NCBI GenBank assembly: GCA_963745835.1
Contig: CAVUZH010000019.1
Coordinates: 486,360 to 550,359 of the forward strand
Origin: an uncultured delta proteobacterium
Lineage (GTDB): Bacteria; Desulfobacterota; Binatia; UBA9968
Length of the DNA stretch: 64,000 bases
Direction: 5' to 3'
The position numbers were made by a program, and so were the translations under genes. Shown in pieces: positions 2,519 through 64,000 of the stretch; within the stretch, counting starts at the first letter, position 1, and the number at the start of each line of letters is the position of its first letter. The notes below the pieces were generated by a model that was not told where the DNA came from, made no database searches, and was given only the letters and a program-made list of their open reading frames with translations.

Positions 2519-3547
2519 CTAATTCCCCAGCAACTTCATCATCTGTTCGACCACGTCCGGCGGCTGGGATACCACTTCTTTGGCGAGCTTGGCCAACTCT
2601 TCACCGCTGACCGCATCCACCGACCATCGCCGTTTCTTCAACTCTTCGAGAAGAGCGGGATCCTTTAGCGACTGTTCATACGCGTCGCGCAACATTTTTA
2701 TACGATCCGGCGGCACGCCCGGTGTCGCCACCATCGGTCGTCCGAAAACCGCGGGTGCGAGCAGCACCGTAGCCACTTTCCGGGTTTCCTCCGGTGTTTT
2801 CAGTTGGTCCATCAATTCATAAATGGACGGAACATCAGGAACCAGACGATCTCTTTTTTTTCCCGTCTGTAGTATTGGCCGGACAAAGCCTTTCTTGTGC
2901 CAGGTCAGAAACGGCTCGCGCGCGAAGTAGGTGCTGATCGTCAAATTGCGGCATTGGAGCTCGCCGCGCTCGATGCCGAGATCGATCTCGCCGCCGCCGG
3001 GATAGCCGCTGACGATGTTGAACTTGATCCCCAGCCCTTCGTCCAGAAATTTCGGCATGTAATAACCCGAGGTGCTGGTACCCGTCGCGCCGCATTTGGG
3101 CGGCTGCGCGGCCTTGCGCACATCCTCAATCGATTGATACGGCGTGTCGGTCCTCATGATCAGGATGAATTCCGTTTGCTCCGGCGTGCCGATCCACGAG
3201 AATCTCGCCCAATCGAACTGCACTTCGGGACGCTTGGCCAGTTGGTCGAAGTACATCGACGGCCCGAATGTGCCCAGAGTGAGCCCGTCCGGCTTCGCCA
3301 CGGAGTAAACGTAATTGGCGGCGATGATTCCGCCGGCTCCGGTCATGTTCTGCACGATGAACGTGGGATTTCCCGGAACGTACTTGCCCATGTGCTGAGC
3401 GAAGATTCTAGCCCACAGATCGTAGGCATCGCCGGCGAGATTACCGACGATGATGCGGATGGTTTTTCCTTGATAGAAAGGCGCCTGAGCGTGAACGTTA
3501 GCTATCGACGCCAGCAGAAATAACAGCGCGCAGACGAAGCGTTTCAT
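2519..3547 (-). CDS. Tripartite tricarboxylate transporter substrate-binding protein (Bug/TctC-like)
   Basis: FYQGKTIRIIVG, QNMTGAGG, KPDGLT, GYPGGGEIDL motifs; signal peptide. Confidence 0.85.
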   Translation of the reverse strand: MKRFVCALLFLLASIANVHAQAPFYQGKTIRIIVGNLAGDAYDLWARIFAQHMGKYVPGNPTFIVQNMTGAGGIIAANYVYSVAKPDGLTLGTFGPSMYFDQLAKRPEVQFDWARFSWIGTPEQTEFILIMRTDTPYQSIEDVRKAAQPPKCGATGTSTSGYYMPKFLDEGLGIKFNIVSGYPGGGEIDLGIERGELQCRNLTISTYFAREPFLTWHKKGFVRPILQTGKKRDRLVPDVPSIYELMDQLKTPEETRKVATVLLAPAVFGRPMVATPGVPPDRIKMLRDAYEQSLKDPALLEELKKRRWSVDAVSGEELAKLAKEVVSQPPDVVEQMMKLLGN

Positions 3548-7765: not shown

Positions 7766-7985
7766 GACAGACCTCCCAATGGTTTCTACAATGAAGATAC
7801 AATTGTAACCTGCTTGGCGTCAAGTTTGGCTGGCGTTGCCGCTGAGGAACTATCCTTGTGCACGGTTGCGACACAATAAGGATAGTGCTCCATTGCCGTC
7901 GAGGCGCTTGGAAAGCACCCGGCAAAATAGCAAGATGGGATGCGCCGAGACTTTTGCAGGAGACACGTAACTTGGTGGAGGCTTT

Positions 7986-8966
7986 ATGATCCCAATGATG
8001 AATACGTACGACACGATTCGCACGAGTTTGCACTTCAATAAGTTCGTGGTCGGGGAGCTGCTTTTCGTCGAATACAAGTGCCCGATTGAACAGGAAGCCG
8101 CCGGCGTGTGGACGCCGATGGATTATTTTGTTCATGTGCTGAGCGGCAAAAAAACCTGGCGCACTACTGACGGAACTTGGATAGCAGAAAAGGGCCAGAC
8201 TTTGTTTTTCAAGAAAGGCGCCGCCGTTGTCTACCAGGATTTCAAGGACGATTTCTGCGTTTTGGTGTTTTTCGTTTCGGATAATTTCATCCGGGATGTT
8301 GTCAGAGAAGTTTCCGGTCAATTGAGCAGCCGGCGCGACGCCAACGCGCTTCAAAAAGCCGCGATTCTAATCAATGCCGATGTGACTTTGGCCGCCTATT
8401 TTCAATCCATGCTGGCCTATTTCACTGGGACGGCAAAGCCGGCCGAAACTTTGTTGACGCTCAAGCTCAAGGAATTGATCGTGAGCATACTTTTGGGGGG
8501 CAGGAATCCCGAGCTCGCCGGTTACTTTCAATCGCTGCTCAAAAGCGATGCCCCTGTGCTGTCGCAAATCATGGAGGCGAATTTTTCTTACAATCTGGCG
8601 CTGGAAGATTTCGCAAGATTATCCCATCGCAGCCTGTCGACGTTCAAACGCGACTTCCGCAAGTACTACAACCAATCCCCGGGCAAGTGGCTATTGCAAA
8701 AGCGACTGGACTATTCAGCCGTGCTGTTAAAAAATCCCGCGCTCAACGTTTCGCAAGTCGCCTTGGATTGCGGCTTCGAAGACCTCTCGCATTTCAGCCG
8801 GGCGTTCAAAGAAAAATTCGGCACCTCCCCGGCGCATTACCGTAAAGAAATTCCTGGTCGTGGCGTCTCGCGGCTTAGTGAAACAGACCTCTTGCAGGCT
8901 GCTCAAAAAGATCCAGAGGCGAGGCCCGCGAAGATCGATAAGCGGAGGCGTGCTCTTGCACGTTGA
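7986..8966 (+). CDS. AraC-family transcriptional regulator
   Basis: SLSTFKRDF and VALDCGFEDLSHFSRAFKEKFG HTHs; the last ~24 codons come from a MITE-like repeat. Confidence 0.9.
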   Translation: MIPMMNTYDTIRTSLHFNKFVVGELLFVEYKCPIEQEAAGVWTPMDYFVHVLSGKKTWRTTDGTWIAEKGQTLFFKKGAAVVYQDFKDDFCVLVFFVSDNFIRDVVREVSGQLSSRRDANALQKAAILINADVTLAAYFQSMLAYFTGTAKPAETLLTLKLKELIVSILLGGRNPELAGYFQSLLKSDAPVLSQIMEANFSYNLALEDFARLSHRSLSTFKRDFRKYYNQSPGKWLLQKRLDYSAVLLKNPALNVSQVALDCGFEDLSHFSRAFKEKFGTSPAHYRKEIPGRGVSRLSETDLLQAAQKDPEARPAKIDKRRRALAR

Positions 8967-9017
8967 CGCGCAATCGGTCGAGAGCAACGAAGCCTATGGG
9001 CTTTTTCAGCAACCTGC
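8894..9017 (+). mobile_element. MITE-like repeat, copy 1
   Basis: TIRs GCAGGCTGCTCAAAAAG / CTTTTTCAGCAACCTGC (15/17); internal gcaacgaagc shared with other copies. Confidence 0.75.
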
Positions 9018-9118
9018 TGGAAAGAGCCGCTCAGTCAAACATCTGGCCTCTCAAACAAAGCATCTTTCTCTGCCCCGCTTTATCTTTGGCAGCAGAATAA
9101 ATCTTTAAGGAGCCAATT

Positions 9119-10222
9119 ATGAACTATTCGAACGCATCCCAATGGACCGAGGTTGCTCACAGTCTGGGCCGGGAATTCGCCGCCCGCGCTGCGGCCCACG
9201 ATGAGCAGGACACATTCGTCGGCGCTAACTACGCGGCGCTGAAGGAGCGGCGGGTGTTCTCCGCGGCGATTCCACAAGAATTGGGTGGCGGCGGCGCCTC
9301 GCACCGTGGGATCTCAGACATGCTTCGCGTACTTGCCCAATATTGCGGCTCCACCGCGCTGGCACTCTCGATGCACCAGCATCTCATCGCCGCCACAGTT
9401 TGGAAATACCGACACGGTCAGGGCGGCGAGCCCTTGCTTAAGAAGGTCGCCGAAAGCCAGCTCGTGCTCGTCAGCACAGGCGCCGGCGATTGGCTGGAGT
9501 CCAACGGCTCGATGAACAAAACCGATGGGGGCTATGTCGTCAGCGCCCAAAAACACTTCGCCAGCCAGTCTGCGGTCGGCGACATGCTGGTCACGAGCGC
9601 GCCGTTCATGGATGAGGTCCTGCACTTTCCGGTGCCGATGAACGCGCCGGGAGTCACAGTCCTGAACGACTGGCGCGCGCTCGGCATGAGAGGCACCGGT
9701 TCTCATACCGTCAAACTGGAGAACGTCTTCGTACCCGAAGCCGCCATCGCTCTGCGACGGCCGCGCGGCGCCTATCACCCGGTTTGGAATGTTGTGCTAA
9801 CGGTGGCAATGCCGCTGATCATGTCCGTCTATGTGGGCATCGCGCAAAAGGCGGCGGAGTTATCGGTTAGCCATCTCCGACGGAAAAAAACTCGGAAACC
9901 GCAGGTGCCCTCTTTGATCGGTGCAATGAACAACGATCTGATGGCCGCTGAGATTCAGCTGAATGACATGCTGCGCATCGCCAACAATTACGAGTTCGAA
10001 GCCATCGACAAAAACGGTCATGACATTCTCGCGCGAAAGACCAACGTCGCCAACGCCGCCATAGGCGTTGTCACCAAAGCGATGGAAATCGTTGGCGGTG
10101 AGGGTTTGTACCGTGATTTCGGTTTGGAGCGGCTTTTCCGCGATGTTCAAGGCGCGCGCTATCATCCGTTGCCGGAAGCTGAGCAGGTAAAGTTTTCGGG
10201 AGAGTATCTCTTACGCGACTGA
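9119..10222 (+). CDS. Acyl-CoA dehydrogenase-family protein
   Basis: IPQELGGGG, STALALSMH, DWRALGMRGTGS, LERLFRDV; AAGGAG RBS. Confidence 0.9.
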   Translation: MNYSNASQWTEVAHSLGREFAARAAAHDEQDTFVGANYAALKERRVFSAAIPQELGGGGASHRGISDMLRVLAQYCGSTALALSMHQHLIAATVWKYRHGQGGEPLLKKVAESQLVLVSTGAGDWLESNGSMNKTDGGYVVSAQKHFASQSAVGDMLVTSAPFMDEVLHFPVPMNAPGVTVLNDWRALGMRGTGSHTVKLENVFVPEAAIALRRPRGAYHPVWNVVLTVAMPLIMSVYVGIAQKAAELSVSHLRRKKTRKPQVPSLIGAMNNDLMAAEIQLNDMLRIANNYEFEAIDKNGHDILARKTNVANAAIGVVTKAMEIVGGEGLYRDFGLERLFRDVQGARYHPLPEAEQVKFSGEYLLRD

Positions 10223-15085: not shown

Positions 15086-15972
15086 ATGCCCTCGATTCCT
15101 TCTCTTCACCTTCTCAAGGTCTTCCTGCGGGTCGTCAATGAGCGCGGTATCTCCAAAGCCGCGGCCGCCCTCAACGTAAGGCAGCCTTCGGTTTCCATGC
15201 AGATTCGTCAACTCGAAACCACCTTCGGGGTGAAATTGCTCGATCGTCTTGGGCAAGAGATCCATCCAACCCAAGCAGGAATGATGTTACGAGAATACGC
15301 GACGAAGATCCTTGACTTGGTTGATCACTTGCACGCCGACATGGCGAATCTGCAGAACTTGAGAACCGGCCGGCTGGTAGTGGGTGGGAGTAAAGTACCA
15401 AGTGCTAGAAGATTCCTCTGGCCATTGCAACGTTTCAAAAGTTGTACGGGCAAACAGAGATTTTGATGGAAGTGGCAAGCAGCGATGCTGTGGAACAATG
15501 GGTTCTTGAGAACCACGTTGATTTTGCAATCGTCGTAGGCGATCCCGTCGCACCTCAAATCGTGGAAGAACCGTTTTATAAGGAAGATTGGTACTGTTCT
15601 ACCACCCAAACACCCCATGGAGAAAAGGAGATAGGTATCGGCTTATCAGATCTCAGAAATGCGCTTGTTTCTGCCGCACGATGGACGGGTGAAGACATAT
15701 ATTGAGAACTGCTTTGCAGAAAAAGGAATACCGCTCAATCGGAGGGTATCTCTCGGATCGATGGATTCAGTTAAGACTGCGATTGGTGCCGGATTAGGGG
15801 TATGGATCATGGCCAGATCGACAGTCGAAAGAGAAGTAAAAACCGGTTTGCTATTGACAAAAGACTATGCGATCTGGAACTGAAGTATCCGGTAAACATC
15901 AACTATCATAAGGATAAGCATTTTTCCCGGCTAGCCACGGAATTTCTTGCTGTTCTTAGAGAGTCTGTCTGA
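15086..15972 (+). pseudogene. LysR-family regulator, frameshifted, divergent from the hydrolase operon
   Basis: ISKAAAALNVRQPSVSMQIRQLE HTH; substrate-binding domain continues across frames to TGA at 15970-15972. Confidence 0.85.
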
Positions 15973-16299
15973 ACGAGAATCTCACCCCGATTACCCTACA
16001 GCTCGTTGAGAAACAGAGATCGTGAAACGATCGCGATTACTTATACCCGGGATCAGGTTATACCGGGGATCAAGCGAGGGATGAGATATGCGATCTTCAC
16101 TGGAAAATCGGCCTCGGTGATGATGCCGTTATCGATGAGCAGCTTTTGCCGCGTCGGTTTGCGGCTAAATTTGCAACCAACTCGAGACGGCATGAGCCAC
16201 GCGGCGAAACGCTATCAGGTTGCTGATCTTATAAACGGAATGGCCTCCGCGCGACCGGCTGTGGTACACCGGCGGAGACAAAACCTTAGGAGGCCAGCG

Positions 16300-17309
16300 A
16301 TGGAACATTTTGTTGGTATCGATTTACACAAGTACGTATCACAATTGGCTGTGTTGAGGGAAAGCCGATCTCCTTCACAGTTACGTTTGGCGAATGATGT
16401 TGTGACGGTGGAACGGATTTTAAAGAAACTTCCCGAGGGGAGCAAGATAGCGGTAGAGGCGATGGGTTCGTGGTGGTGGATGGTTGAGCTAGTGCAAAAG
16501 ACTGGCCACGAAGCGTTTTGGTCGCATCCAAGCAGACAAGGCGTTCGGTCAGCGCGATTGAAGTCCGATAAGGTCGATGCTTGGATATTGGCCAAGTTAC
16601 TTAAGGCCGATCTGCTTCCCGCGGTGTAGATCCCTCCTGAAAACCAACGTCATATTCGCGAGCTTCTGACCCACCGGGCGCGCCTGGTGCGTCAACGAAC
16701 CGCTGTGATCAACGAACTGCGTGCGGTTTACGCCAAGCGAAACATCGATCCTCAAGCCAAGCTTCAGCGGGCCGAACCCCAAGTCTCGGGAGCCGAGGAT
16801 CTCAGCGGCTATGCTCCGAGGATTGTGGGAGAAGATGTGGAGCTTTTGGGGTTTGTCAATGGGCAGATTGGAGGACTGGACAAGGAGTTGATGAAGATCG
16901 CTCTTGAAGATGGCTCGGCTAAGCGGCTGATGACGATCCCGGGGGTGGGAGCGGTGAGTGCGGTGGCGATGAGCTGCTGGATTGGCGAGATTGCTCGATT
17001 TTCTAATGCGAAAAAGTTGGCCAGCTACTTTGGGTAGGCGCCGCGGGTGCGCCAGAGCGCCGACACCGAACGCCATGGACATATCACCAAAGAAGGCGAT
17101 CGCATGGTGCGCTCTCTGGTGATCCAAGCCGCCCTGGTGTATACGCGAAGGGGTAAAGGCCTGAGCGTAGCATTATTTGGGGTGCTTAAAAGAAGAGGCA
17201 AGCCGATTGACCGGGTGGCGGCGGCCAACAAACTGTTGGGCGTGATTTTTCATATGCTCAAAGAATGCATCGACTATCAGGAATCCTCAGGCGTAGCGAC
17301 GCACAGTGA
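16300..17309 (+). pseudogene. IS110 DEDD recombinase/transposase, inactivated
   Basis: AGGAGG RBS; GIDLHK, AVEA, KSDKVDA, LMTIPGVG, RF.NAKKLASYFG, RQS, GHITKEG; in-frame TAG at 16627-16629 and 17035-17037 plus small deletions. Confidence 0.9.
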
Positions 17310-17435
17310 GGCCGTACTTGTTCATGGTCGTAAGACCGAGTTGCTGATTGGGCAGCTGTGCCTCTCCAGAGGGAGAACCGCCGGATTTAAGATATGCGCT
17401 TTTAAAGGGCGCGAAGAGATGAGTGGGTCGCTACC
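17301..17435 (+). ncRNA. Predicted bridge RNA / seekRNA guide region (target loop and donor loop)
   Basis: CTTGTTCA-hairpin-GTTGCTGA matches both strands of the target; TAAGAT(-)A-hairpin-AGAGATGA matches both strands of the circle junction; RNA boundaries uncertain. Confidence 0.8.
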
Positions 17436-17613
17436 CATACGTTGATCAGCCCGGCGATCAGAGCCGAAAAGGGGAATACCGGGAGTCATATTAAACTGAG
17501 ATAGTGCGTTATAAGCGAAATACGGAGGTCTTTTTTTGAGAAATCATTGCAAAACAAAATCAAGCTGTAACCCGCTTGACTGAGCCGTTCCGTTTAGAGA
17601 TGAAAAAGCCTTT

Positions 17614-17755
17614 GCGGGTTGCTCAAAAACCAAAGACGGGACGCGCTACGAACCGTGATCGTTTCCCGTGAAAATCCACACGAGCATGACACGCTTCAGG
17701 ATCCGATCTAGTGGGGCGACGCAACGAAGCTAATCGATGTTTTTCAGCGGCCCGT
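17614..17755 (+). mobile_element. MITE-like repeat, copy 2
   Basis: GCGGGTTGCTCAAAAAC ... gcaacgaagc ... GTTTTTCAGCGGCCCGT; abuts the stop codon of the convergent gene. Confidence 0.7.
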
Positions 17756-18177
17756 TAGGCGCCTGATCGGAGACTGCCATAAAGGCGCTCGGGGGTAATG
17801 AGAACCAGATTTCTCTCTTCCTCACGCATCTGCCTGGCGAATTCCTCGTCCGTTCCTTTGGGGGCGCGGCCCATGGCCGTGTAGAGCTCCTTCAGCCGCT
17901 TGATATGCGCTGGCGTGTCTTGCCACGGCTCGATGGAGGTCGGGCCCTCGACGGTGACATAGCGCCGCGTGTCGAGCTTGATCACTGTGATCGTCGCCCG
18001 GCCCGTTCTCTGAATGTTCTTGATTTTTACCGTCCATCCGCGCGATGCAAACCCGACCTTACCATCCAATACGGCGGTCGAGACGACGGTCGACTGCGCA
18101 CGGCCGTTGGGCATGACGCTGATCGCGACGCCGGTGTGATTTTCTTGCAATAAGGGGAGCGCTTCTTTCCATTCCAT
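17755..18177 (-). CDS. PPOX/pyridoxamine 5'-phosphate oxidase-like protein (possibly F420-dependent)
   Basis: PNGRAQSTVV, KIKNIQR, RYVTVEG, R.LVLITPER; GGAGG RBS. Confidence 0.75.
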   Translation of the reverse strand: MEWKEALPLLQENHTGVAISVMPNGRAQSTVVSTAVLDGKVGFASRGWTVKIKNIQRTGRATITVIKLDTRRYVTVEGPTSIEPWQDTPAHIKRLKELYTAMGRAPKGTDEEFARQMREEERNLVLITPERLYGSLRSGA

Positions 18178-20139: not shown

Positions 20140-20243
20140 TTCTCAGGCGCAAGCGCGAGGCGGTCTAAGAGCGAAGTCGTACAGTTTAGTATGTTGACAA
20201 AAGCCGGAAGCGGCAAAGCTATTAGGTTTTTTCAGCAACTTGT
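20140..20243 (+). mobile_element. MITE-like repeat, degenerate copy 3
   Basis: Right end GTTTTTTCAGCAACTTGT and internal similarity to copies 1 and 4; left end eroded. Confidence 0.55.
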
Positions 20244-39158: not shown

Positions 39159-40907
39159 ATGCCGGCACGGTATGGTTCCGATCTGGTCGTCGATCTGCTC
39201 AAAGTTCTCGGCATCGAATACGTCGCGCTCAATCCAGGCTCGAGCTTTCGCGGTATCCATGATTCTCTGGTGAATTACGAAAGCGGCCGCACGCCGAATC
39301 CGGAAATGATTCTCTGCTGCCACGAAGAGATCGCCGTGGCGGTGGCGCACGGCTACGCTAAGGCGACTGGGAAAATTATGCCGGCCATCGTGCACAACGT
39401 CGTCGGCCTGCAGCACGCTTCCATGGCAATTTACAATGCCTGGTGCGACCACACCCCGGTGATGGTCATGGGCGGCACCGGGCCGATGAACTCGAGCAAG
39501 CGACGGCCTTGGATCGACTGGATTCACACCGCGCACGTGCAAGGCAATCTGGTGCGCGACTTCGTCAAATGGGACGACCAACCGGTGGGAGTCGAGGCTT
39601 TTCCGTCGTCGATCATGCGCGGCTATCGCATCGCCATGAGCGATCCCGGCGGTCCGGTCTACCTCTGTTTCGACGTGACCGATCAGGAGGCGGCGATCGA
39701 TAAGGAAATTCCGCTGCCCGATCCGAAACGATTTCGTCCAGCGGCGCCCCTGCAAGCCGATTACGACGCGATCAAAGAAGCCGCTCAGCTACTCTCGACG
39801 GCGCAAAACCCGGTGATCCTTGCCGATTACGTCGGGCGCAATAACGAAGCGGTGATGAGTCTAGTGGCGCTGGCCGACCTGTTGTCGATTCCGGTAATCG
39901 ATTTCGGCGCGCGCTTGAACTTTCCCAACACTCATTCTTTGAATCTCACCGGCAGAAATCGTGAACTGATCGCCAACGCTGATGTGATCATGGGTTTGGA
40001 CATGACCGATCTTTACGGCGCGCTGGTGCGCTCCGATCCAAACACGCACGCCAACGTTCCAGCGACCAAACCCGGCTGCAAAGTGATCAATGTCACGCTC
40101 AAAGATATCGTAGTTCGCAGCTGGACCAGCGACTTTCAGGAACTGGCGCCGGTGGACGTGCCAATCGTCGCTAATACCAGAGTCTTTCTCCCCGCCCTCG
40201 CCGAGGAGATCAAAAAACAAGGAAAGTTTTCCAAGAGCGTGGTCGACGACCGGCGCAAAGCGATGGCGGGCCAGCATGAAGAAGTGCACGCGCGCTGGCA
40301 GGCCGACTTGAAGAAGCGTTGGGATGAGCGGCCCATCGCGCCGCCCCGTCTCGCCTACGAAATTTGGGAAGCGCTGAAAAAAGAAGACTGGCTACTGGTC
40401 GCCGGAGCCTTTCGCGGCTGGCCAAGCCGGCTATGGACCTGGGACAAGCCCGGACTGTTTCTCGGCGGCTATGGCGGCGGCGGCTTGGGCTATGGGCCGG
40501 CTGCATCTGTCGGCGCATCTCTGCCGTACCGCGGCACGGGCAAGATCTGCGTCAACCTGCAGCGCGACGGCGAGATGCTGTACACGCCAAGTGCCCTGTG
40601 GACCGCCGCCAACACCGGCGTGCCGCTGCTGACGGTGATGACCAATAACCGTGTTTACTACAATGACGTGGAGCATCAAGAAAAAGTTGCGATTCACCGC
40701 GGCCGGCCGGTGGAAAACAAGCTCGTGGGTATGGAGATGGCCAAACCGCCGGTAGATTTTGCCAATCTGGCTCGCACCTTCAGTGTTCATGGCGAGGGAC
40801 CGATCACCGAACCGGAACAGATTCGGCCGGCGGTGGAACGGGCGATCAAGGTCATCAAGGAAGAGAAGCGGCCGGCCTTGGTCGATGTGTATATGCAGAT
40901 GGTTTGA
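39159..40907 (+). CDS. Thiamine diphosphate-dependent enzyme (ALS/benzoylformate decarboxylase-like)
   Basis: NPGSSFRG.HDS, HEEIAVAVAHGY, RDGEMLY...NN ThDP motif. Confidence 0.9.
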   Translation: MPARYGSDLVVDLLKVLGIEYVALNPGSSFRGIHDSLVNYESGRTPNPEMILCCHEEIAVAVAHGYAKATGKIMPAIVHNVVGLQHASMAIYNAWCDHTPVMVMGGTGPMNSSKRRPWIDWIHTAHVQGNLVRDFVKWDDQPVGVEAFPSSIMRGYRIAMSDPGGPVYLCFDVTDQEAAIDKEIPLPDPKRFRPAAPLQADYDAIKEAAQLLSTAQNPVILADYVGRNNEAVMSLVALADLLSIPVIDFGARLNFPNTHSLNLTGRNRELIANADVIMGLDMTDLYGALVRSDPNTHANVPATKPGCKVINVTLKDIVVRSWTSDFQELAPVDVPIVANTRVFLPALAEEIKKQGKFSKSVVDDRRKAMAGQHEEVHARWQADLKKRWDERPIAPPRLAYEIWEALKKEDWLLVAGAFRGWPSRLWTWDKPGLFLGGYGGGGLGYGPAASVGASLPYRGTGKICVNLQRDGEMLYTPSALWTAANTGVPLLTVMTNNRVYYNDVEHQEKVAIHRGRPVENKLVGMEMAKPPVDFANLARTFSVHGEGPITEPEQIRPAVERAIKVIKEEKRPALVDVYMQMV

Positions 40908-63756: not shown

Positions 63757-64000
63757 TCAGGCTGCTGAAAAACACCCATATGCTTCGTTGGGCTCGAGTT
63801 CCTCGCTGAGACATACAAAAAAAGTTGAACTTCGATCGTCGATACTTCGCCCGTCTTGCATCTGGGTCTTTTTGAACGGCCTCTGGACGGTCTTGAAGGT
63901 CGATTCGGCGAAGAAGTCGCGCTCTGCTTCTTCGGGTTTCGGATAGGGACTAGCCACTGCAAATACAAAGGCGGAGGCGATTTCGTCTTTGACTTGCTGT
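63757..64000 (-). CDS. 3' end of a second E1 alpha subunit, partial, extended through a MITE
   Basis: EIASAFVFAVASPYPKPEEAERDFFA is a typical E1 alpha tail; the stop TGA lies in the repeat's TIR. Confidence 0.7.
   Translation of the reverse strand, partial: QQVKDEIASAFVFAVASPYPKPEEAERDFFAESTFKTVQRPFKKTQMQDGRSIDDRSSTFFVCLSEELEPNEAYGCFSAA
63758..63883 (-). mobile_element. MITE-like repeat, copy 4
   Basis: Reverse complement GAGGCCGTTCAAAAAGACCCAGATGCAAG...CAACGAAGCATATGGGTGTTTTTCAGCAGCCTG aligns to copy 1. Confidence 0.75.

What the first reader, a model, noticed from the sequence alone, without database searches (positions are those of the whole stretch)
16213..17610. The IS110 appears programmed to insert into the terminal repeat of a resident MITE family
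Seen: removing the IS at the TGA core (16224-26 / 17601-03) restores CAGGTTGCTGAAAAAGCC. This is an exact 18/18 match to the reverse complement of the unoccupied MITE end at 8999-9016, and it resembles ends near 20225-20242 and 63758-63775. Established: some IS110/IS1111 members target repeated DNA (REP sequences, attC sites, Tn21-type IRs). Inference: this is an element-on-element relationship using an abundant, mostly intergenic repeat as a safe landing pad. I do not know of this target class being described.
Basis: partly seen in the sequence, partly recalled or inferred. Interest (0 to 1): 0.85.

Follow-up and report, generated by a model that had tools for sequence, protein, structure and literature searches.

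The report
RNA-guided IS110 element targeting MITE ends
A decayed copy of an IS1111-type insertion sequence sits exactly inside the end repeat of a small, abundant, mostly intergenic repeat, and its relatives carry a guide RNA whose two arms spell out that repeat end; this is a clear but already known kind of behaviour.

Summary
Window 16227-17600 is an IS110-family element of the IS1111 type. It is bounded by TGA at 16224-26 and 17601-03 and lies inside the terminal repeat of a ~155-bp MITE-like repeat (235 nhmmer hits in the genome). The window copy is dead: two in-frame TAG stops, several 1-bp indels and damaged guide arms. An intact copy lies on contig C22.

Two same-genus genomes carry the orthologous C22 locus with an uninterrupted repeat end and no IS, joined with a 3-bp TGA overlap. 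That is the predicted empty allele.

At least 14 distinct insertion loci of this IS in soil genomes and metagenomes have the same junctions. Ten of 11 reconstructed sites match the repeat model.

The 3' non-coding region folds into a loop with two arms, CUUUUUCA and G(U/C)UGCUGA. These read the two strands of the target in the order published for IS1111 seekRNAs. The U/C position follows the T/C of the left flank in 7 of 7 elements. A sister IS has both arms rewritten to match its own, different flanks.

The interpretation therefore holds, but the novelty claim does not. IS1111 in Coxiella targets QMITE2, IS4321/IS5075 target Tn21 terminal repeats, and IS621 and ISPpu9 target REPs. Verdict: a new member of a known kind.

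The parts
16212..16226 (+). Left part of the outer-left terminal repeat of a MITE-like copy (CTATCAGGTTGCTGA). The TGA core is at 16224-16226.
   Evidence: The reconstructed site matches the repeat HMM at positions 2-155, E 9.3e-10.
16227..17600 (+). IS110-family (IS1111-type) insertion sequence, 1374 bp, decayed copy.
   Evidence: 96% identical to the intact copy C22:70287-71668. Same junctions in relatives.
16232..16244 (+). Left subterminal inverted repeat, TAAACGGAATGGC.
   Evidence: 12 of 13 complementary to 17584-17596, read.
16302..17309 (+). Transposase pseudogene. In-frame TAG at 16627-16629 and 17035-17037, plus several 1-bp indels relative to the intact 338-aa gene.
   Evidence: The intact homologue matches PF01548, PF02371 and NF033542.
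17301..17364 (+). Predicted target-binding loop of the seekRNA/bridge RNA: an outer stem enclosing two arms and a small hairpin (17326-17337).
   Evidence: RNAalifold consensus, alignment columns 2-65.
17317..17324 (+). 5' arm. In this copy it reads CTTGTTCA, a mutated form. Ten other elements read CTTTTTCA, the complement of TGAAAAAG.
17340..17347 (+). 3' arm, GTTGCTGA, identical to the left target plus core (16219-16226).
17389..17394 (+). Candidate right-donor arm. The intact copy has AAGATCA, the complement of TGA+TCTT; this copy lacks the C.
   Evidence: My reading of the alignments. One co-varying position with the G003 element. Inferred.
17415..17422 (+). Candidate left-donor arm, AGAGATGA, equal to the right-end terminus plus core.
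   Evidence: My reading. Inferred.
17584..17600 (+). Right end with its subterminal inverted repeat (GCCGTTCCGTTTAGAGA).
17601..17758 (+). Remainder of the interrupted MITE-like copy: the second TGA, the inner-left repeat GGGTTGCTCAAAAAC and the right repeat TTTTTCAGCGGCCCGTTAG.
   Evidence: nhmmer hit at C19:503960-504116.
8871..9019 (+). Unoccupied MITE-like copy. Its right end, 8999-9016, is the exact empty target.
20225..20242 (-). End of another, partial MITE-like copy; 2 mismatches to the target.
63758..63775 (+). End of another MITE-like copy; 3 mismatches to the target.

Best explanation
Window 16227-17600 is a decayed copy of an IS1111-type member of the IS110 family. It inserted by site-specific, RNA-guided recombination into the terminal repeat (CTAGCAGGyTGCTGAAAAAG) of a ~155-bp MITE-like repeat.

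The intact element (C22:70287-71668) encodes a 338-aa DEDD transposase. Its 292-nt 3' non-coding region encodes a seekRNA/bridge RNA. In that RNA a stem closes a loop with two arms on either side of a small hairpin. [quoted passage not shown] A second loop carries arms that match the joined IS ends: AAGAUCA and AGAGAUGA.

Recombination at the shared TGA (or TG) places the IS in the repeat end without a duplication beyond the core. Because the repeat is abundant and almost always intergenic, it works as a harmless landing pad.

Shown here: the anatomy, the junctions, the empty allele, the repeated targeting, and the agreement of arms with flanks. Inferred: that the RNA is made and guides the transposase, the donor arms, and the selective benefit.
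For: Family. Pfam PF01548 (4.9e-18) and PF02371 (5e-24). NCBIfam NF033542 'IS110 family RNA-guided transposase', 246 bits against a cut-off of 140. Homology to the solved IS621 transposase, E 4.9e-14.

IS1111-type layout. The left non-coding end is 73 nt and the right one 292 nt. A 13-bp subterminal inverted repeat is present.

Empty allele. G006:C28 and G005:C376 show the flanks joined with a 3-bp overlap.

Targeting. All 4 IS copies or fragments in G000 abut repeat hits. At least 14 distinct loci in other assemblies share the junctions CAGGyTGCTGA| and |TGAAAAA. Ten of 11 reconstructed sites match the repeat HMM (E from 3.9e-7 to 4.2e-49): 3 in the outer-left repeat and 7 in the right repeat.

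Guide. The only two 8-mer matches between the 1382-bp IS and the 23-nt target are CTTTTTCA (reverse complement, IS position 1098) and GTTGCTGA (same sense, position 1121). They sit on the two sides of a hairpin inside a conserved stem. The top-strand match comes first, as published for IS1111 seekRNAs (PMC11187229, abstract and section 9).

Covariation. The T or C of the 3' arm equals the T or C of the left flank in 7 of 7 elements that have both: 4 T/T and 3 C/C.

Sister IS. In G003:C216, TAGCCTGA matches its left flank 8 of 8, and AAAGGGGAC is complementary to its right flank 9 of 9, while the surrounding stems are conserved. Two further copies in G088 have the same right flank, matching 9 of 9 and 8 of 9.
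Against: No Rfam family matched the non-coding region. The simple scans found no promoter or terminator there.

The 7 co-varying elements are close kin (82-98% aa identity), so they represent few independent events.

One element (L030) lies in a site that does not match the repeat, with arm matches of only 7 of 8 and 6 of 8.

The deleted element in G027 matches on the left arm only: 8 of 8 there, but no match between the right arm and its flank.

The empty orthologous sites in G006 and G005 read GGCTGCTGA and GACTGCTGA, whereas the occupied G000 flank reads GGTTGCTGA. The site therefore changed, or differed, before insertion.

The window copy itself has a damaged 5' arm, a damaged candidate donor arm and a broken gene, so it cannot act alone.
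Confidence: 0.85

Rival explanations
1. Target choice is made by the transposase protein, which recognises the repeat end as DNA sequence or hairpin. On this reading the two matching RNA arms are coincidental or serve another purpose.
For: No direct RNA evidence was obtained here. At least two 8-mer matches anywhere in the IS occur in 13% of shuffles. The repeat end is partly palindromic.
Against: The arms sit at the homologous positions of a conserved loop. The T/C position tracks the flank in 7 of 7 elements. In the sister IS both arms, 17 nt in all, are rewritten to its own flanks while the transposase and the stems stay similar. Experiments in print show that such arms determine the target in this family (PMC11187229 abstract and sections; PMC11208160 passages).
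Confidence: 0.07
2. The copies did not transpose into repeat ends. Instead, one ancestral IS-in-repeat unit spread by homologous recombination or gene conversion between repeat copies, or the flanking 11 and 8 nt belong to the IS itself.
For: The four T-type elements share an identical 11-nt left flank. The repeat is abundant enough to support recombination.
Against: The empty alleles have exactly the predicted joint. Insertions lie in both the outer-left and the right repeat, with the same polarity relative to the repeat sequence. Left flanks of C-type elements vary: GGCTACTGA, GACTGCTGA, AGGCTGCTGA. No two left flanks are alike beyond the repeat.
Confidence: 0.04
3. The association is an assembly or binning artefact of a mixed metagenome-assembled genome.
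For: G000 has 9.33% estimated contamination and 7.28 Mb, against 3.9-5.5 Mb in its genus. Some repeat loci appear twice with identical flanks.
Against: The same junctions occur in independent assemblies from other samples. Shared repeats of 10-18 bp are too short to mislead an assembler.
Confidence: 0.02

Closest known systems
IS1111 of Coxiella burnetii inserting into QMITE2 (PMC5896051; passages read)
   Same: An IS1111-type element whose copies nearly all lie at one position near the end of a MITE. Occupied and empty MITE copies differ between strains.
   Different: A different host lineage, a different repeat sequence and a different site. There the site is a GTAG REP inside QMITE2; here it is the terminal repeat itself, in two of the repeat's three copies of that motif. 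No guide analysis was made in that paper.
[quoted passage not shown]
   Same: An IS1111-family element with subterminal inverted repeats aimed at the terminal inverted repeat of another transposable element.
   Different: That target is an autonomous Tn3-family transposon on plasmids, not a chromosomal miniature repeat present in hundreds of copies.
IS621, ISPpu9 and ISPa11 targeting REP elements (PMC11208160 passages; PMC12288879 abstract and passages)
   Same: Site-specific insertion into abundant intergenic repeats, with an RNA guide holding target and donor loops.
   Different: IS621 is IS110-type: the guide is in the left end, the arm order is reversed and the core is CT. REPs are short palindromes rather than a ~155-bp element with terminal inverted repeats.
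seekRNA of ISEc11, ISPa11 and ISKpn4 (PMC11187229; abstract and sections 6, 9 and 13 read)
   Same: The non-coding region is downstream of tnp. The top-strand-complementary segment lies 5' of the bottom-strand-complementary one. The matches overlap in the target. The transposase is 330-350 aa.
   Different: The conserved motif here reads GLAPRVRQSA (S-A), whereas the paper lists SG, TG or occasionally TA. No sequence similarity of the RNA to those elements was tested.

Membership tests
IS110 family (DEDD transposase) | N-terminal RuvC-like DEDD domain (PF01548) and C-terminal PF02371 domain. | tested here: met
   Intact copy: PF01548 at 4.9e-18 and PF02371 at 5e-24. NF033542 at 246 bits, cut-off 140. 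IS621 transposase in the PDB at E 4.9e-14. Individual catalytic residues were not checked.
IS110 family (DEDD transposase) | Site-specific insertion with only a short shared core and no longer target duplication. | tested here: met
   Occupied and empty alleles differ by the IS plus one TGA.
IS1111 subgroup | The long non-coding region lies downstream of tnp and the left end is short. | tested here: met
   73 nt upstream and 292 nt downstream. Criterion taken from PMC11187229 section 6 and PMC11208160 section 12.
IS1111 subgroup | Subterminal inverted repeats of 7-17 bp. | tested here: met
   TAAACGGAATGGC against the reverse complement of GCCGTTCCGTTTA: 12 of 13, starting 5 nt inside the ends.
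IS1111 subgroup | GL-P----S(t)G motif; transposase of 330-350 aa. | tested here: inconclusive
   The length of 338 aa fits. The motif reads GLAPRVRQSA, that is S-A rather than SG, TG or TA (one search compared).
seekRNA / bridge RNA | Two short segments complementary to opposite strands of the target and overlapping at the core, with the top-strand match 5' in the IS1111 type. | tested here: met
   CTTTTTCA then GTTGCTGA, overlapping at TGA. Both are rewritten in the sister IS.
seekRNA / bridge RNA | The RNA is transcribed, binds the transposase and is required for transposition. | not testable with these tools
No Rfam model matched.
seekRNA / bridge RNA | A donor-binding loop matching the joined IS ends. 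| tested here: inconclusive
   AAGATCA is the complement of TGA+TCTT, and AGAGATGA equals the right-end terminus plus TGA. One co-varying position appears in G003 (TCTC with GAGATCA), but G027 does not follow it.
MITE | Small, non-coding, many copies, terminal inverted repeats. | tested here: met
   ~155 bp and 235 nhmmer hits. The ends are CTAGCAGGyTGCTGAAAAA and TTTTTCAGCAGCCTGCTAG, with a third, inner copy of the motif.
MITE | Target-site duplication and insertion polymorphism. | tested here: inconclusive
   Copies are bounded by CTAG...CTAG. That could be a TA duplication at CTAG or part of the repeat. At one locus G001 and G004 lack the ~135-bp inner part that G000, G005 and G006 have; insertion and deletion cannot be told apart.
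MITE | A related autonomous element with the same ends. | tested here: not met
   No pair of ends encloses a transposase. The 12 Y1_Tnp and 1 DDE_3 genes are not flanked by these ends, and the IS630-type element has other terminal repeats. Only G000 was searched.

The most novel reading that the evidence does not exclude
The IS and the repeat family are co-evolving at single-base resolution. Guide variants (U or C in the 3' arm) track sequence variants of the repeat end. The resident U-type IS occupies the rare T-type ends: 4 occupied, against 9 empty GTTGCTGAAAAA sites and 44 empty GCTGCTGAAAAA sites. Insertion splits the repeat's terminal repeat and so disables the repeat copy, which would make the IS a hyperparasite. 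A related possibility concerns the two internal IS fragments that are still framed by the two target halves. They could be products of guide-directed recombination at pseudo-sites inside the IS.
Probability: 0.15. Interest if true: 0.55.

Novelty: new member of a known kind. Interest (0 to 1): 0.3.

Why it matters
This is a clean natural example of bridge/seekRNA programming in an uncultured soil lineage. It offers an occupied and an empty allele, natural single-base guide-target covariation, and a sister element with both arms rewritten. It adds a documented guide-target pair and a second case of an IS1111-type element living on a MITE. It does not change what is known about the family. It is useful for annotation: such IS copies and the repeat should be masked together, and the 18-mer predicts insertion sites.

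Tried and rejected
Empty allele at the window locus. Same-genus genomes share only the right flank, from window 17756 onward. The left side is not syntenic, so no empty allele exists for this copy. The test was made on the C22 copy instead.

Rfam. Nothing relevant appeared in the 14-kb locus holding the intact IS; there was one spurious weak hit.

Promoter and terminator scan of the intact IS. No promoter was found, and no terminator in the non-coding region. I considered a junction promoter (the conserved TTGAC in the right end with TATAAA in the left end) and dropped it, because by my count the spacer in the circle would be 25 nt.

Parent element of the repeat. Not found.

Other IS110-family genes in G000 (C13, C15, C5; 23-35% identity). 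Two have no repeat hit within 1.5 kb, and one has a repeat about 1 kb away. They are not part of this system.

G003 target pattern search. Only one near match, so that sister target is not an abundant repeat in G003.

G027 element. It is internally deleted with a non-canonical right junction, so it tests the left arm only.

The T/C tally of the outer-left repeats was confounded by the inner repeat and is not used.

Internal IS fragments (C22:64763-65263 and C3:491052-491541). Only 1 of 4 junctions (C3 right...CTCTGG-TGA-AAAAC) is a precise join at a TGA. The others have 1-5 nt missing or added. No mechanism is claimed.

Supplementary tables of PMC11208160 and PMC11187229 (natural target lists) could not be opened. 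They may already list repeat or MITE targets.

A G018 flank was printed but not used.

Full report
1. WHAT IS IN THE WINDOW

The sequence reads CAGGTTGC-TGA|TCTTATAAACGG...CCGTTTAGAGA|TGA-AAAAGCC, with the two TGA at 16224-26 and 17601-03. The restored 18-mer has an exact match at 8999-9016 (minus strand) and near matches at 20225-42 and 63758-75. That is 3 matches where 0.08 are expected, and 0 of 100 shuffles reached 3.

Between the two TGA lies a 1374-bp element whose reading frame resembles an IS110-family transposase. The frame is broken by in-frame TAG codons at 16627 and 17035 and by several 1-bp indels.

The window is C19:486360-550359 of a 7.28-Mb assembly in 25 contigs. Estimated completeness is 97.1% and contamination 9.33%.

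2. OTHER COPIES IN THE GENOME

BLAST of the element against the genome finds three more pieces:
- one full copy at C22:70270-71678 (96% identical);
- an internal fragment at C22:64763-65263;
- an internal fragment at C3:491052-491541.

The C22 copy has an intact 338-aa gene. It matches PF01548 and PF02371 and NCBIfam NF033542, 'IS110 family RNA-guided transposase', at 246 bits against a cut-off of 140. It is also homologous to the solved IS621 transposase (E 4.9e-14).

The layout is that of the IS1111 subgroup. The left non-coding end is 73 nt and the right one 292 nt. A 13-bp subterminal inverted repeat is present. The criteria come from PMC11208160 section 12 and PMC11187229 section 6.

Three other IS110-family genes in the genome (23-35% identity) are unrelated to this system.

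3. THE REPEAT

The sequence at 8871-9019 belongs to a family with 134 BLAST hits and 235 nhmmer hits at E <= 0.01. The 155/156-position consensus has three copies of one ~19-bp motif:
- an outer-left copy, CTAGCAGGTTGCTGAAAAAC;
- an inner-left copy, TTGCAGGCTGCTCAAAAAG, which lacks the TGA;
- an inverted right copy, CTTTTTCAGCAGCCTGCTAG.

Fifty-eight hits include the outer-left copy and 62 start at the inner one.

Copies are rarely inside genes. Ten of 188 are spanned by an open frame of 200 aa or more, against 676 of 997 random 141-bp segments.

No autonomous partner with these ends was found in G000. The CTAG at both ends may be a TA duplication at CTAG, but that is not shown. I therefore call it MITE-like.

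4. THE IS IS INSIDE THE REPEAT END, NOT THE REVERSE

In the window the IS splits the outer-left repeat of a diverged copy. The reconstructed site matches the model at positions 2-155 (E 9.3e-10). At C22 it splits the right repeat of another copy. Both internal fragments are also framed by the two halves of an outer-left repeat.

The decisive test was the empty allele. The C22 locus is conserved in the genus. In G006:C28 the left flank (96% identical) and the right flank (91%) are contiguous, overlapping by 3 bp at 39618-39620. The sequence there reads ...TTAGCGGGCTGCTGA|AAAAGCCCATAGG... G005:C376 shows the same, at 7865-7867.

For the window's own locus no empty allele could be found, because synteny to the left of the repeat is not kept.

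5. REPEATED TARGETING

Scans with the transposase found close relatives (82-98% aa identity) in soil genome and metagenome contigs: L003, L004, L020, L026-L035 and L039. Every junction found reads ...[C/G/T][A/T]G[G/A][T/C]T[G/A]CTGA|TCTTATAAACGG on the left and CCGTTTAGAGA|TGAAA... on the right.

None of the 12 left flanks resembles any other. Two right-flank pairs may be the same locus (L031 with L033, and L027 with L032). That leaves at least 14 distinct loci.

Of the 11 elements with a right flank, 10 give a reconstructed or partial site that matches the repeat model (E from 3.9e-7 to 4.2e-49). Three are in the outer-left repeat and 7 in the right repeat. L030 does not match. The 5 elements with only a left flank have too little repeat sequence left for the model, but 4 of the 5 end in CTAGCAGGCTGCTGA or CTAACAGGCTGCTGA.

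6. HOW THE TARGET IS READ

According to the literature read here:
[quoted passage not shown] - In IS1111-type elements the RNA is encoded downstream of tnp. The top-strand-complementary segment comes first, and the two matches overlap in the target (PMC11187229 abstract and section 9).

In the intact IS, the only two 8-mer matches to the 23-nt target on either strand are CTTTTTCA (reverse complement of TGAAAAAG, IS position 1098) and GTTGCTGA (same sense, position 1121).

An alignment of nine non-coding regions and its RNAalifold consensus place the two arms on either side of a small hairpin (GGUC...GACC). They lie inside a loop closed by a 12-bp interrupted stem, which has one compensatory pair.

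The base after the G of the 3' arm is U in four elements whose left flank has T (window, C22, L026, L031). It is C in three elements whose flank has C (L027, L028, L030). That is 7 of 7, although these are close kin.

The 5' arm is invariant except in the window copy, which reads CTTGTTCA. Right flanks match it at 6 to 8 of 8 positions.

7. AN INDEPENDENT TEST

A sister IS in the same genus (G003:C216, about 70% nucleotide identity) keeps the stems and the hairpin but has different arms. Its 3' arm, TAGCCTGA, equals its own left flank at 8 of 8 positions. Its 5' arm, AAAGGGGAC, is complementary to its own right flank, GTCCCCTTT, at 9 of 9.

Two 5'-truncated copies in G088 have different right flanks that start with the same TGTCCCCTTT, matching at 9 of 9 and 8 of 9.

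A deleted derivative in G027 matches on the left arm (8 of 8) but not on the right. Its right junction is not canonical.

In these sister elements attL reads TGA and attR reads TGT, so the exchanged core may be only TG.

8. DONOR SIDE (INFERRED)

A second loop holds AAGATCA, the complement of TGA+TCTT (core plus left end), and AGAGATGA, which equals the right-end terminus plus TGA. The G003 element has GAGATCA together with a left end starting TCTC. G027 does not follow this pattern. I give this part moderate confidence only.

9. STATE OF THE WINDOW COPY

The gene is broken. The 5' target arm has a substitution, and the candidate donor arm has lost a base. The ends are intact, so movement in trans is conceivable but untested.

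10. CENSUS IN G000

Empty GTTGCTGAAAAA sites number 9, of which 5 lie in or beside repeat hits. Empty GCTGCTGAAAAA sites number 44, of which 40 do. Fewer than 1 of each is expected by base composition. Four sites are occupied by the IS or its fragments, and all four are T-type. The empty orthologues of the C22 site in G006 and G005 are not T-type.

11. COMPARISON WITH WHAT IS KNOWN

Targeting of abundant repeats by this family is established:
- REP elements by IS621 and ISPpu9.
- The Tn21 terminal repeats by IS4321/IS5075. I saw only the citation; the content is recalled.
- A MITE, QMITE2, by IS1111 itself in Coxiella, where 20 of 21 copies are involved and occupied and empty copies differ between strains (PMC5896051 passages).

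The finding is therefore a well-supported new member of a known kind.

12. LIMITS

There are no expression or activity data. G000 may be a mixture of strains.

Noticed in passing
G000 C22:64763-65263 (L001 about 2764-3264) and C3:491052-491541 (L002): Two internal fragments of the IS (about 500 bp, from the middle of tnp). Each is still framed by the left and right halves of a repeat-end target. Only one of the four junctions is a clean join at a TGA. The origin is unexplained.
   Followed up: partly
L001 about 9565-9606; G000 C14:246785-246826, C13:760177-760218, C3:1165302-1165343: A ~40-nt module of the IS 3' non-coding region (GAGATCGTGCGTTATAAGCGAAATACGGAGGTC followed by a T-run) recurs at 84-95% identity in another repeat. 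That repeat lies at the end of an rve/DDE-type transposase frame on the opposite strand. The module was also matched in most of the 22 other genomes of the order that had any hit.
   Followed up: partly
window 15086-15972: Three successive overlapping frames translate like pieces of one LysR-type regulator, with the helix-turn-helix at the start. This may be a frameshifted pseudogene just left of the IS.
   Followed up: no
window 17755-17758, compared with L089 and L090: The stop codon of the minus-strand gene 17755-18177 lies in the TTAG that ends the repeat. Same-genus genomes have CTAG at the same point but different sequence and a different neighbouring gene beyond it. The locus is therefore a synteny breakpoint.
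   Followed up: partly
L097 (G001:C16) and L099 (G004:C39), compared with L001 9670-9830: At the C22 locus two genus members have only the outer-left repeat plus TTGCAGG and lack the ~135-bp inner part of the repeat. This is a presence/absence polymorphism of the repeat core.
   Followed up: partly
G000 C3:297688-298849: An IS630-family element (DDE_3) with its own terminal repeats abuts, at its right-hand CTAG, a sequence like the repeat end (CAGGTTTCTGAAAAAC).
   Followed up: partly
L112 (G057:C7), minus strand, about 1461-1739: A ~280-bp element has the left and right ends of this IS family but no transposase and no target loop. It may be a miniature derivative of the IS.
   Followed up: no
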